From assembly GCA_034422455.1 (NCBI GenBank), contig DAOUJQ010000013.1:17632-81631 (forward strand): a stretch of DNA of 64,000 nucleotides, in the 5' to 3' direction. The position numbers and the translations under genes are program-made. This DNA is from Dehalococcoidia bacterium (GTDB taxonomy: Bacteria; Chloroflexota; Dehalococcoidia; Lucifugimonadales; UBA1127). Shown piece by piece: positions 30,068-31,101 of this stretch (positions are counted from its first letter, which is position 1; every line of letters begins with the position of its first letter). The notes below the pieces were generated by a model. The model was not told where the DNA came from and made no database searches. It worked only from the letters and a program-made list of their open reading frames with translations.

Positions 30068-30185
30068 TTGACGGTATTTTCAAGTTGTAGGAGGATAGTG
30101 TTGGTCAGCTCGTGAGAGCTGGCTGAAGGTTAGCCCGTGAGGGCTAGCGTGGAGAGGCAGGCGATGGCCTGCCTCTTTCATTTCT
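30068..30185 (+). ncRNA. Structured unit 1 (TTGACG box, two GTGA-loop hairpins, intrinsic terminator); also the likely dinB terminator
   Basis: H1 is CAGCTC-GTGA-GAGCTG (30106-30121). H2 is TAGCCC-GTGA-GGGCTA (30131-30146). H3 is GAGGCAGGC-GATG-GCCTGCCTC (30154-30175), followed by TTTCATTTCT. Confidence 0.4.
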
Positions 30186-30230
30186 GTGGAGACGGTGAAA
30201 AATAGTAGGCTATAATATACGCCCGAAGTC

Positions 30231-30259
30231 TTGACGGTGTGGGCTAGATGTAATATATT
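30231..30259 (+). promoter_or_regulatory. Sigma70-like promoter (TTGACG-17-TATATT)
   Basis: TTGACG lies at 30231-30236 and TATATT at 30254-30259, directly upstream of structured unit 2. Confidence 0.55.
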
Positions 30260-30265
30260 CACCGT

Positions 30266-30350
30266 GGATAGCTCGCATGGGCTAGCCGAAGGATAGCCCG
30301 CATGGGCTAGCGTGGGAAGGGCAAGCGAAGGCTTGCCTTTTTCATTTTCT
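30266..30350 (+). ncRNA. Candidate ~85-nt small RNA (structured unit 2) ending at the DUF3800-2 stop codon
   Basis: H1' is TAGCTC-GCAT-GGGCTA (30269-30284). H2' is TAGCCC-GCAT-GGGCTA (30294-30309). H3' is GGCAAGC-GAAG-GCTTGCC (30320-30337), followed by a T-run to 30350. It is homologous to unit 1 with compensatory stem changes. Confidence 0.4.
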
Positions 30351-31101
30351 AAATCACGATACGCCCTTTGCCATTCACCTTATCGGCAACCGCGTGATTC
30401 GCTCTTTGGCCAAAGGAGTGAATCTGACGAGGCATGGGCAAATGATGCTCTTGAACAGTCAGAGCCTTTTGCTCTGCAGCTAGCAAGTCGGCAATCTGTA
30501 GTCCCGCTACATTGTGTTCCTTTCTCCTGAATAGCAAGACCTCACTTGGGAAAGCTCGACGGAGATCCTCAGGTTTGTTGGAAGATGTCCCCTGATCCCT
30601 CAACGCAAGGTATGTCTGCACTTGTGTGCGGTCCTCTACATCACCCCGCGACTCCGCCATGATGTCCGCTTGGGCATTGCCTCGTTCATTGAGCCAATCG
30701 TAGATGCGTTCGAGTAAGGCTGTCAGACAGTCACTGTATGGGTTTGGACGACCATTCCTGGAGTGAGCTTGTTTATCGAATACCACTGTGAAAACTTGCA
30801 TTGGACAGCGGGACAAGAACGCTATGACGTCGTCATCCCACTTGCGTCTCAATTCAGCATCCGCCAGCACTGAGAAGAAGGAACGTTTCGCCATAATCTG
30901 GTTCCGTATGAGGATTGGCGGGTTGTCAATGTCATAAAAGAGATGCTGGCGCTTCAAGGCTTCCATCGCTTGTGGAATGGCAGGGTCATACTCGGCCTTA
31001 TGGAAGACTACCCCGGTAAGGCCCAGGTACCGTCTGGAAGGGTCGTCCAAACGGTTGTAGGTGTGATCCCCAGACTCGTCGATGTAGACGCGGTAGGACA
31101 T
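30349..31101 (-). CDS. DUF3800 domain protein (copy 2)
   Basis: ORF 30349-31206 trimmed to ATG 31101 (MSYRVYIDESGDH...AESRGD...VAGLQIADLL), 250 aa. It is a distant paralog of 24825-25577 and is AT-richer. Confidence 0.75.
   Translation of the reverse strand: MSYRVYIDESGDHTYNRLDDPSRRYLGLTGVVFHKAEYDPAIPQAMEALKRQHLFYDIDNPPILIRNQIMAKRSFFSVLADAELRRKWDDDVIAFLSRCPMQVFTVVFDKQAHSRNGRPNPYSDCLTALLERIYDWLNERGNAQADIMAESRGDVEDRTQVQTYLALRDQGTSSNKPEDLRRAFPSEVLLFRRKEHNVAGLQIADLLAAEQKALTVQEHHLPMPRQIHSFGQRANHAVADKVNGKGRIVI

What the first reader, a model, noticed from the sequence alone, without database searches (positions are those of the whole stretch)
30068..31101. DUF3800 islet 2: tandem pair of three-hairpin units (candidate sRNA genes), the second ending exactly at the DUF3800 stop codon
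Between dinB and the second DUF3800 gene there are two homologous ~120-bp units (30068-30185 and 30231-30350). Each is a TTGACGGT box followed by hairpin H1, hairpin H2 and a GC-rich terminator hairpin with a T-run. Unit 2 has a good -10 (TATATT, 17-nt spacer). Between units the stems are kept by paired changes: GAGGCAGGC/GCCTGCCTC versus GGCAAGC/GCTTGCC. Both small hairpins switch loop in concert, GTGA in unit 1 and GCAT in unit 2, while keeping TAGCCC/GGGCTA stems. The T-run of unit 2 ends at the stop codon of the minus-strand DUF3800 gene (30349-30351). The islet is AT-richer than the flanking dinB and ispH genes. Together with islet 1, this suggests DUF3800 travels with a convergent small structured RNA.
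Basis: partly seen in the sequence, partly recalled or inferred. Interest (0 to 1): 0.55.

Follow-up and report, generated by a model that had tools for sequence, protein, structure and literature searches.

The report
Small RNA gene partnered with DUF3800
The two repeated hairpin units are real small-RNA genes of a widespread family absent from Rfam 15; the family almost always sits tail-to-tail with one subfamily of a DUF3800 gene, whose product looks like an RNase H-type nuclease, and this adds a new RNA class to a known but unexplained DUF3800–RNA partnership.

Summary
Units 30068-30185 and 30231-30350 are homologous, strongly structured, and built as described.

Unit 2 belongs to a conserved RNA family of about 77-85 nt. 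Its layout is a sigma-70 promoter, a 5' yAAU, helix P1, GGUGGA, helix P2 (GNRA-like loop), GCG, and a long terminator helix P3.
- **Protein-first test:** a covariance model finds the RNA convergent with, and abutting, the stop codon of a DUF3800 gene in at least 77 of 80 loci from many phyla.
- **RNA-first test:** a metagenome scan finds a convergent DUF3800 gene next to 84 of 109 RNA copies. The other 25 are orphan RNAs.
- **Structure:** 97.9% of cells pair, and 24 of 25 pairs show compensatory changes.
- **Rfam 15:** no family matches, including DUF3800-I to XI.

Unit 1 is a lineage-specific tandem duplicate with a weak -10 box. A third, orphan copy lies at 37975-38055. Islet 1 carries a different conserved DUF3800-linked hairpin RNA.

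The DUF3800–RNA association itself was published in 2017 (11 motifs, function unknown), so this is a new member of a known kind.

The most likely function is a trans-acting RNA partner, probably an antitoxin-like restraint, of the DUF3800 nuclease, which has a distant RNase H-like fold. This is inferred, not shown.

The parts
30231..30259 (+). Promoter of unit 2: -35 TTGACG (30231-30236), 17-nt spacer, -10 TATATT (30254-30259)
   Evidence: The consensus scan scores 10 of 12. The -35 and -10 boxes are kept in L001-L003 while the spacer varies. In the family, 39 of 81 loci pass a strict -35/-10 test against 0 of 81 control windows. The -10 box sits at one fixed offset in 32 of those 39.
30266..30348 (+). 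Unit 2 RNA, the conserved DUF3800-partner RNA (about 83 nt predicted). H1 is 30269-30284, a P2-like copy in place of P1. GGA is 30291-30293, P2 is 30294-30309 (loop GCAU), GCG is 30310-30312, P3 terminator helix is 30313-30344, and the U tail is 30345-30348.
   Evidence: R1 scores 108 bits and R2 44 bits. It is conserved with compensatory changes in L001-L003. Fold z = -4.6. Family covariation is shown.
30068..30184 (+). Unit 1, a lineage-specific tandem duplicate of the RNA gene. -35 TTGACG is 30068-30073 with no good -10 box. H1 is 30103-30124, P2 is 30131-30146 (loops GUGA), P3 is 30150-30180, and the U tail is 30181-30183. It starts 21 nt after the dinB stop codon, so it may also be made by read-through and may terminate dinB.
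   Evidence: R1 scores 98.7 bits and R2 45 bits. It is present in the window and L001, absent in L002, and replaced by a one-hairpin variant in L003. The scan finds a terminator at 30151-30178.
30349..31101 (-). DUF3800 gene 2 (250 aa). It has a distant RNase H-like fold, with invariant DE (D8 E9) and QxxD (Q202..D205) motifs.
   Evidence: Pfam PF12686, E = 2e-13. Invariant columns are listed. The AF2 model has pLDDT 94.8. Foldseek gives weak best matches, mostly to RNase HI.
31108..31136 (-). Candidate promoter of DUF3800 gene 2 (TTGACT, 17 nt, CATCAT). It ends 6 nt before the ATG, which suggests a leaderless mRNA.
   Evidence: Found. The boxes and their distance to the ATG are kept in L001-L003. 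This is an inference only.
37975..38055 (-). Orphan third copy of the RNA. P2 and P3 are intact and P1 is degenerate. It lies right after the hisB-like stop codon, with no DUF3800 gene or remnant beside it.
   Evidence: R1 scores 52 bits and R2 41 bits. No DUF3800 remnant was found.
24657..24850 (+). Islet 1: two tandem promoter, hairpin and T-run units of a second, unrelated DUF3800-linked RNA motif. Unit A hairpin is 24693-24723 and unit B hairpin is 24812-24840. The stop codon of DUF3800 gene 1 (24825-24827, minus strand) lies inside the loop of unit B.
   Evidence: Sequence is. The motif is conserved in L001, L205, L206, L209 and L213. R1, R2 and Rfam give no hit.

Best explanation
**Shown**
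- Unit 2 is a gene for a small structured RNA (about 77-85 nt) of a widespread family that Rfam 15 does not match.
- The family has its own sigma-70 promoter and three helices.
  - P1 is small and variable.
  - P2 is a 6-bp stem with a G-first, mostly GNRA-like tetraloop, flanked by invariant GGA and GCG.
  - P3 is a long A/U-flanked hairpin that looks like an intrinsic terminator.
- The RNA is encoded convergently, with its 3' end abutting or overlapping the stop codon of one DUF3800 subfamily.
- Unit 1 is a tandem duplicate specific to this lineage.
- In this clade P1 has been replaced by a copy of P2, which explains the 'concerted' loops.

**Inferred**
- P3 probably terminates transcripts from both directions.
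- The RNA is the trans-acting partner of the DUF3800 nuclease, which has a distant RNase H-like fold. P2 and its invariant flanks form the protein-recognition site.
- The RNA most likely restrains the nuclease in the way an RNA antitoxin does (type III-like logic). The pair would then behave as a compact, horizontally moving toxin-antitoxin or defence-type module.
- The shared 3' hairpin couples the ends of the two transcripts.
For: - **Synteny and compensatory changes:** seen in L001-L003.
- **Protein-first association:** model R1 hits the site right after the DUF3800 stop codon in about 60 of 80 loci, and R2 in 76 of 80. L004 is hit by R1 only, and two more loci carry the RNA by eye. There were no other hits in 571 kb apart from the extra copies noted.
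- **Position of the 3' end:** it lies -9 to +18 nt from the stop codon.
- **RNA-first association:** 84 of 109 metagenome stretches found through a P2 DNA pattern alone have a convergent DUF3800 ORF 23-80 nt away.
- **Covariation:**
  - 98.3% of cells pair on a MAFFT alignment, against 28-54% for slid partners, with 0 of 500 shuffles reaching the score.
  - 97.9% pair on the protein-anchored set, and 24 of 25 pairs have compensatory changes.
  - The base of P3 covaries: UG/CA 81, UA/UA 17, CA/UG 3.
- **Promoters:** 39 of 81 loci against 0 of 81 controls.
- **Asymmetry expected of an antitoxin:** the protein practically never occurs without the RNA, while the RNA lacks the protein in 23% of cases.
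- **Module composition:** there is no third conserved gene, with 129 Pfam families among 113 flanking ORFs.
- **Protein:** DE and QxxD are invariant. The fold is distantly RNase H-like.
- **Literature:**
  - DUF3800 is the effector-position domain of type VII retrons and an RNase H-like accessory of Cas12a2/a3 loci (PMC7736814, PMC10910872, PMC13594972).
  - Eleven other DUF3800-linked RNA motifs occur in either orientation, which argues for action in trans (PMC5737381).
- **Signs of a dispensable, mobile module:** low-GC islet, pseudogenised or fragmented DUF3800 copies, and one DUF3800 gene beside the CI repressor of a temperate phage.
Against: - There is no expression, binding or toxicity data.
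- PADLOC has no model that hits the protein, and no solved structure exists.
- The strictly convergent, 3'-abutting layout in this subfamily could instead mean cis-antisense control.
- Orphan RNA copies could persist simply because they are good terminators.
- Only about 10% of flanking genes are defence or mobile genes. The module is almost absent from viral contigs. No close relative was found on plasmids, where the best match is 31% identical.
- The RNA could equally be a required cofactor rather than an inhibitor.
Confidence: 0.5

Rival explanations
1. Cis-antisense regulator with type I toxin-antitoxin-like logic. The convergent RNA controls DUF3800 through its overlap with the 3' end of the mRNA, by duplex-triggered decay or by transcriptional interference. 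No protein-RNA complex is involved.
For: - The orientation is always convergent, and the RNA 3' end lies within -9 to +18 nt of the stop codon.
- In many loci the UCA of UUUUCAUUU is the reverse complement of the TGA stop codon.
- P3 looks like a terminator in both directions.
- The promoters are strong and near consensus.
- In islet 1 the RNA overlaps the last codons of DUF3800 gene 1.
Against: - P1, P2 and the invariant GGA and GCG lie outside any likely overlap. They are conserved across phyla with covariation, which simple antisense pairing does not need.
- The other published DUF3800 motifs occur on either side and in either orientation (PMC5737381).
- Orphan copies are kept intact without a target gene.
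Confidence: 0.2
2. Obligatory cofactor, scaffold or substrate. DUF3800 needs the RNA to be active, for example as a recognition scaffold or as an RNA that it processes, rather than being inhibited by it.
For: - The protein and RNA co-occur almost universally.
- P2 has a conserved protein-site-like core.
- DUF3800 has been proposed to act in crRNA biogenesis or interference in Cas12a2 loci (PMC10910872).
- Weinberg et al. judged some DUF3800 motifs complex enough for 'sophisticated' functions (PMC5737381).
Against: - There is no variable unpaired segment that could serve as a guide. Only the P1 loop and the P3 apex vary.
- Orphan RNAs are common while orphan proteins are rare, which fits an inhibitor better than a cofactor.
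Confidence: 0.2
3. No dedicated function. The units are duplicated terminators of dinB, or members of the genome's REP-like intergenic repeat families.
For: - The window is full of REP-like hairpin repeats.
- Unit 1 follows dinB directly, and the orphan copy follows hisB directly.
- Both end in terminator-like hairpins.
Against: - There are only three copies in 64 kb, and they are unrelated to the REP families.
- The RNA has its own conserved promoter.
- It keeps its position next to DUF3800 across many phyla while the gene on the other side varies.
- P1 and P2 covary and are not terminators.
Confidence: 0.03

Closest known systems
DUF3800-I to DUF3800-XI RNA motifs (Weinberg et al. 2017, NAR 45:10811, PMC5737381; Rfam RF02969, RF02968 and others)
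   Same: - They are small conserved structured RNAs found next to DUF3800 genes.
- Several end in Rho-independent terminators.
- A 'UAA' element is common; here it appears as 5' yAAU and the GUAA loop.
- Their function is unknown.
   Different: - None of the Rfam models matches this RNA, even at E <= 5-10.
- This motif is tied to one protein subfamily that occurs mostly in uncultured Chloroflexota, Planctomycetota, Acidobacteriota and other phyla.
- It is strictly convergent and abuts the stop codon, whereas the published motifs occur on either side and in either orientation.
- I could not see the published consensus drawings because the supplement is not held.
Type III toxin-antitoxin systems (ToxIN, CptIN, TenpIN)
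   Same: - A protein nuclease is paired with a small structured RNA encoded beside it.
- In the window's clade the RNA carries repeated near-identical hairpins and the RNA gene is tandemly duplicated.
- Orphan RNAs are tolerated while orphan proteins are not.
   Different: - The protein is DUF3800 with a distant RNase H-like fold, not a ToxN/AbiQ-type endoribonuclease.
- The RNA is convergent with its own promoter. It is not an upstream same-strand repeat array separated from the toxin gene by a terminator.
- Typical members have no repeats.
- No activity data exist.
Type I toxin-antitoxin systems with 3'-overlapping antisense RNAs (e.g. Bacillus subtilis txpA/RatA, bsrG/SR4; from my own knowledge)
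   Same: A convergent small RNA is paired with the 3' end of the protein gene, and the two share a terminator region.
   Different: - The 'toxin' here is a 250-aa soluble enzyme, not a small membrane peptide.
- The conserved parts of the RNA lie outside the overlap.
Retron type VII (reverse transcriptase + msr/msd + DUF3800 effector; Mestre et al. 2020, PMC7736814)
   Same: A DUF3800 protein is partnered with a structured non-coding nucleic acid in a compact module of the defence type.
   Different: - There is no reverse transcriptase gene and no msr/msd here.
- The partner is a plain 80-nt RNA.

Membership tests
DUF3800-associated RNA motifs as a class (Weinberg 2017) | Conserved RNA located next to a DUF3800 (PF12686) gene | tested here: met
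   At least 77 of 80 protein-anchored loci and 84 of 109 RNA-anchored loci.
DUF3800-associated RNA motifs as a class (Weinberg 2017) | Conserved secondary structure supported by covariation | tested here: met
   98% of cells pair, 24 of 25 pairs have compensatory changes, and 0 of 500 shuffles reach the score.
Any one of Rfam DUF3800-I to XI | Match to the family covariance model at or near its gathering score | tested here: not met
   - No DUF3800-* hit in the window (gathering threshold, and E <= 10).
- None in 40 loci at gathering threshold, and none in 11 typical loci at E <= 5.
- Caveat: no positive control for these models could be obtained. That all eleven motifs are in Rfam is from memory.
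Type III toxin-antitoxin (ToxIN/CptIN/TenpIN) | Toxin of the ToxN/AbiQ/CptN/TenpN endoribonuclease families | tested here: not met
   Pfam finds only PF12686. PADLOC finds nothing.
Type III toxin-antitoxin (ToxIN/CptIN/TenpIN) | Antitoxin is a tandem direct-repeat RNA array upstream of the toxin on the same strand | tested here: not met
   The RNA is convergent and downstream. Hairpin repeats occur only in the window's clade.
Type III toxin-antitoxin (ToxIN/CptIN/TenpIN) | RNA binds and inhibits the toxin protein; the toxin processes the RNA | not testable with these tools
   Needs co-expression, pull-down and cleavage assays.
Type I toxin-antitoxin | Small (<60 aa) hydrophobic toxin peptide | tested here: not met
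   The protein is a 250-aa enzyme with a distant RNase H-like fold.
Type I toxin-antitoxin | Antisense RNA overlapping the toxin mRNA | tested here: inconclusive
   The RNA 3' end lies -9 to +18 nt from the stop codon and P3 is shared. The transcript ends are unknown.
Retron type VII | Adjacent reverse transcriptase gene and msr/msd | tested here: not met
   The neighbours are dinB and ispH. No reverse transcriptase family appears among the 25 most frequent Pfam families listed for the flanking ORFs.
OMEGA-type guide RNAs (TnpB/IscB) | RNA on the same strand overlapping the nuclease 3' end, with a variable guide segment | tested here: not met
   The RNA is on the opposite strand, and no unpaired variable stretch exists.
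REP-like intergenic repeats or plain terminators | Many dispersed copies, no promoter of their own, no fixed gene partner | tested here: not met
   There are three copies in 64 kb. The promoter is conserved and the partner is fixed.
Pfam DUF3800 (the protein) | PF12686 match with N-terminal DE and C-terminal QxxD motifs | tested here: met
   E = 2e-13. D8, E9, Q202 and D205 are invariant in 30 homologs.

The most novel reading that the evidence does not exclude
DUF3800 plus its convergent RNA is a new class of two-component nuclease/RNA module. The P2 hairpin of the RNA binds an RNase H-like toxin or effector and holds it in check until the RNA is lost or displaced, for example during phage infection. 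This would give the first mechanism for all the DUF3800-linked RNAs that have stood unexplained since 2017. The duplicated, concertedly evolving P2 hairpins and the tandem RNA genes in this genome would then be dosage or avidity adaptations for a dimeric protein.
Probability: 0.3. Interest if true: 0.8.

Novelty: new member of a known kind. Interest (0 to 1): 0.6.

Why it matters
DUF3800 proteins turn up as retron effectors, as CRISPR-Cas12a2/a3 accessories and as stand-alone genes with eleven different RNA partners. Nobody knows what the protein or the RNAs do.

This motif adds a very regular case that is easy to test.
- It is a module of about 1.1 kb with one protein and one RNA of about 80 nt.
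- The promoters, the terminator and the recognition hairpin are clearly defined.
- It is abundant in uncultured phyla.

The strict architecture, and the contrast between common orphan RNAs and almost no orphan proteins, give a concrete antitoxin-like hypothesis that could be tested in E. coli.

The covariance-model-ready alignments (A8, A9) could also seed a new Rfam family and improve the annotation of Chloroflexota, Planctomycetota and Acidobacteriota MAGs.

Tried and rejected
- **Rfam 15:** tried at gathering and permissive thresholds on the window, 40 protein-anchored loci and 11 typical loci. Only chance hits, tRNA, SRP RNA and RNase P RNA were found.
- **Positive control for Rfam's DUF3800 models:** DUF3800 loci from S. 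meliloti pSymA, M. extorquens p2METDI and Paracoccus phage Pkon1 gave no hit, so there is no control.
- **Weinberg 2017 supplement:** not held, so the published consensus drawings could not be compared.
- **PADLOC** on the DUF3800 proteins: no hit.
- **PDB:** the sequence profile found nothing meaningful. The fold search gave only weak RNase HI-like matches with E >= 0.013.
- **Viral contigs:** one pattern match without an adjacent full DUF3800 ORF.
- **Phage and plasmid collections:** only relatives at about 30% identity.
- **tRNA-targeted integration:** rejected as a general feature, since only 4 of 60 loci have a tRNA nearby.
- **A third conserved gene:** none found. The flanking ORFs hit 129 Pfam families.
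- **A small ORF or guide segment in the RNA:** none seen by inspection.
- **5'-AAUG/CAUU-3' end pairing:** rejected in favour of the extended P3. The CA covaries with the UG of GCGUG, not with the 5' end.
- **Automatic P3 delimitation by minimum energy:** my first attempt over-extended into flanking sequence and was redone with a single-hairpin constraint.
- **R1 alignment:** it mis-modelled P1 for typical members, so a second model (R2) was built from a gapless seed of 17 sequences.
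Full report
**1. The observation**

The region between the dinB stop codon (30045-30047) and the stop codon of a minus-strand DUF3800 gene (30349-30351) holds two homologous units. They align at 81% column identity.

Each unit has four parts (coordinates read):
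- a TTGACG box at 30068-30073 or 30231-30236;
- a first small hairpin at 30103-30124 or 30269-30284;
- a second small hairpin at 30131-30146 or 30294-30309;
- a GC-rich hairpin with a T-run.

Both small hairpins carry a GUGA loop in unit 1 and a GCAU loop in unit 2.

- The + strand folds far better than shuffles, with z = -6.3 and -4.3 for whole units and -6.8 and -4.6 for the predicted transcripts.
- Unit 2 has TTGACG, a 17-nt spacer and TATATT. Unit 1 has no acceptable -10 box.
- A 28-nt core pattern occurs only twice in the window, with 0 expected by chance.
- The islet is 52.6% GC in a window of about 68% GC.
- The flanking proteins are DUF3800 (PF12686), DinB and IspH/LytB.

**2. Close relatives**

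The DUF3800 protein has homologs at 94%, 81% and 64% identity on metagenome contigs with the same ispH–DUF3800–dinB synteny.

Unit 2 is kept in all three contigs:
- The -35 and -10 boxes are kept while the spacer changes.
- L003 shows compensatory changes in the second hairpin (UAGCCC/GGGCUA becomes UGGCUC/GGGCCA).
- L003 also shows an A-U to G-C change in the terminator.

Unit 1 is not conserved in the same way:
- It is present only in the window and the 94% relative.
- It is absent in the 81% relative.
- In the 64% relative it is replaced by a one-hairpin variant with its own TTGGCA, 17 nt, TACAAT promoter.

Unit 2 is therefore the conserved element and unit 1 is a lineage-specific tandem copy.

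**3. A widespread RNA family**

A scan of species-representative genomes gave 80 loci that encode DUF3800 relatives at 32-52% identity. They come from Chloroflexota, Planctomycetota, Acidobacteriota, Verrucomicrobiota, Armatimonadota, Bacillota, Patescibacteria, Proteobacteria and one archaeon.

Covariance models find the RNA at one fixed place:
- Model R1, built from the six window-clade sequences, found a full-length match on the opposite strand right after the DUF3800 gene in about 60 of these loci.
- Model R2, built from 17 typical members, found it in 76 of 80. L004 is hit by R1 only.
- Two of the three remaining loci carry divergent or truncated versions by eye.
- Apart from the extra copies described below, there were no other hits at E < 0.01 in 571 kb.

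The typical architecture is as follows:
- -35 TTGACA, about 17 nt, TAnAAT, then about 5-6 nt;
- 5'-yAAU;
- P1, five base pairs with a 4-nt loop;
- GGUGGA;
- P2, six base pairs with a G-first tetraloop (mostly GUAA or GUGA);
- GCG;
- P3, 12-16 base pairs;
- UUU.

The UG of GCGUG pairs with the CA inside UUUUCAUUU. This pair covaries: UG/CA 81, UA/UA 17 and CA/UG 3 of 104.

The RNA 3' end lies -9 to +18 nt from the DUF3800 stop codon. In many loci the UCA of the tail is the reverse complement of the TGA stop codon. With its A-rich 5' flank and U-rich 3' flank, P3 looks like a terminator that works in both directions. That last point is an inference.

**4. Structure statistics**

| Alignment | Cells forming standard pairs | Slid-partner control | Double-change cells | Shuffles reaching the score |
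|---|---|---|---|---|
| MAFFT, 48 typical members, P1 + P2 only | 98.3% | 28-54% | 95, against 32 ± 5 in shuffles | 0 of 500 |
| Protein-anchored, model-fitted, 82 distinct rows | 97.9% | 43-49% | not quoted | 0 of 500 on every measure |

In the second alignment, 24 of 25 pairs show changes on both sides.

The second alignment is fitted to the model and so leans towards the structure. The first is not fitted, and P1 was never part of any search pattern.

A strict promoter test passed in 39 of 81 loci, against 0 of 81 control windows 100 nt further upstream. The -10 box sits at one fixed offset in 32 of the 39.

**5. The test from the RNA side**

A 27-nt degenerate P2 pattern was scanned through the metagenome collection without any protein information.

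Of the 109 stretches that were model-confirmed and had enough downstream sequence:
- 84 have a DUF3800 ORF that is convergent, with its 3' end 23-80 nt beyond the pattern. Some of these ORFs are frameshifted or reduced to remnants.
- 25 have none. The RNA there sits next to unrelated genes (domain labels are my reading of the translations, not a family search):
  - RhuM/Fic-like genes;
  - an IS200/RAYT-like transposase;
  - a HEPN-nucleotidyltransferase;
  - PIN-domain genes;
  - an Mrr-like gene;
  - fragments of restriction-modification methylases.

The window has one such orphan at 37975-38055, directly after a hisB-like gene. L010 has another. Neither has a DUF3800 remnant beside it.

The association is therefore strong but asymmetric. 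The protein practically never lacks the RNA, whereas the RNA lacks the protein in about 23% of cases.

**6. Clade-specific features of the finding**

In the window's clade (window, L001-L003, L008, L010, L047), P1 is replaced by a near-copy of P2.

Within one RNA the two copies carry the same loop in 7 of 8 cases (GCAU/GCAU, GUGA/GUGA, GUAA/GUAA, GUAG/GUAG). The loops differ between RNAs. This concerted behaviour is unexplained. Gene conversion, or selection for two identical protein sites, would both fit.

Tandem RNA genes are likewise confined to this lineage.

**7. What is known**

Weinberg et al. 2017 (PMC5737381) described DUF3800-I and ten further motifs (II-XI) next to DUF3800 genes. 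The motifs lie on either side and in either orientation, and several have terminators. The authors offered no functional hypothesis.

Rfam 15 contains these families; RF02969 and RF02968 are named. None matches the RNA:
- in the window, at gathering threshold or at E <= 10;
- in 40 loci at gathering threshold;
- in 11 typical loci at E <= 5.

Two limits apply. I could not obtain a positive control for those models, and I could not see the published drawings.

On the protein side:
- DUF3800 is described as RNase H-like, with DE and QxxD motifs.
- It is the effector-position domain of type VII retrons, and an accessory of Cas12a2/a3 loci.
- In this subfamily D8, E9, Q202 and D205 are invariant.
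- The AF2 model is confident, with pLDDT 94.8.
- Its best PDB matches are weak and are mostly RNase HI.
- PADLOC and PDB sequence searches find nothing.

**8. Mechanism**

Shown: this is a two-part module of one DUF3800 gene and one promoter-driven, terminator-ended structured RNA, with no third conserved gene.

Inferred:
- The invariant unpaired GGA and GCG around a covarying stem, together with a G-first loop, look like a protein-recognition site.
- The published motifs work in either orientation, which points to action in trans.
- Orphan RNAs are common and orphan proteins are rare, as expected if the protein is harmful without the RNA.
- The low-GC islet, the pseudogenised copies and a DUF3800 gene beside the CI repressor of a Paracoccus phage fit a dispensable module of the toxin-antitoxin or defence type.

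I therefore favour an antitoxin-like RNA that restrains a DUF3800 nuclease with a distant RNase H-like fold (confidence about 0.5). The rivals are cis-antisense control through the shared 3' end (0.2) and an obligatory cofactor or substrate role (0.2). 'Just terminators or REP repeats' is essentially excluded.

**9. Islet 1**

The two units downstream of DUF3800 gene 1 form a second conserved motif, which R1 and R2 do not match:
- Each unit has TTGACT or TTGACA, 16 nt, TACCAT or TATTAT, then the hairpin GGCUGG-YYACUGYKUAKCGGGG-GCYRGCC and a U-run.
- The motif is found with homologs at 60-98% identity from several phyla.
- The stem alternates between Watson-Crick and wobble versions.

**10. Verdict**

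The finding is real and its interpretation is essentially right. The specific RNA family appears uncatalogued and is widespread in uncultured bacteria. The kind of association has been known since 2017, and its function remains open.

Noticed in passing
window 24657-24850 (+); DUF3800 gene 1 at 24825-25577 (-); loci L001, L205-L214: Islet 1 carries a second, unrelated conserved DUF3800-linked RNA motif. Each unit is a promoter, the hairpin GGCUGG-YYACUGYKUAKCGGGG-GCYRGCC and a U-run. There are two tandem units here, as in L205. The DUF3800 stop codon lies inside the loop of unit B. Rfam gives no hit.
   Followed up: partly
window 37975-38055 (-): This is an orphan third copy of the islet-2 RNA, with P2 and P3 intact and P1 degenerate. 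It lies between a hisB-like gene (which ends at 38080) and a small GIY-YIG gene (37567-37863), with no DUF3800 remnant. It may now serve as the hisB terminator.
   Followed up: partly
window 31108-31136 (-); L001-L003 (alignment A12): The candidate DUF3800 promoter (TTGACT, 17 nt, CATCAT) ends 6 nt before the ATG, and L001-L003 have the same layout. This suggests a leaderless DUF3800 mRNA.
   Followed up: partly
window 30187-30216 (+): An extra promoter-like site (TGGAGA, 18 nt, TATAAT) lies between unit 1 and the -35 box of unit 2. It could give a longer unit-2 transcript, or it could be a chance match.
   Followed up: no
window u1/u2, L001-L003, L008, L010, L047: In this clade, helix P1 of the RNA is a copy of P2. 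The two hairpins of one RNA share the same tetraloop in 7 of 8 RNAs, while loops differ between RNAs. This is concerted evolution of unknown cause.
   Followed up: partly
window, many sites (e.g. 1708-1798, 2317-2611, 3132-3657, 4667-4772, 20250-20475, 28193-28247, 32245-32342, 37878-37932): Several families of REP-like intergenic hairpin repeats are scattered through the window. Examples are CCCTTCGATTTCCCTCAGGGCGAACGG, GGGTTCCTGCCTGCGCAGGAACGACG and CTGGATACCGGCATGCGCCGGTATGA. They often occur together in composite arrays.
   Followed up: no
window 11014-11700: A long imperfect GTGGTC/GTGCTC/ATGGTC repeat region is present, with periods of 12-33 nt. It probably codes on one strand for a His/Asp-rich or Thr/Val-rich low-complexity protein.
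   Followed up: no
window 59094-62546: Three tandem copies of a unit of about 1.18 kb, 70-86% identical, which probably represent a paralogous gene triplet.
   Followed up: no
window 45007-45398 (-) and 6235-6309 (-): Bacterial RNase P RNA class A (254 bits) and a tRNA-Gly(UCC). These are ordinary housekeeping RNAs.
   Followed up: no
L217 (Paracoccus phage vB_PkoS_Pkon1, MK291442.1 7051-10668): A distant DUF3800 gene sits directly downstream of the CI-like repressor in the lysogeny module. It is followed by about 830 nt with no annotated gene, which is a candidate place for yet another DUF3800-linked RNA.
   Followed up: no
L003 11334-11901: The ortholog of DUF3800 gene 1 is frameshifted in L003, with residues 1-36 and 37-189 in different frames, and its RNA units are not recognisable. 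This suggests the module is decaying there.
   Followed up: partly
L008 3897-3973 and L010 3872-3948: A tRNA-Pro(UGG) gene lies immediately upstream of the RNA gene in two Dehalococcoidia MAGs. This is rare overall (4 of 60 loci have any tRNA nearby), so it is not a general integration site.
   Followed up: yes
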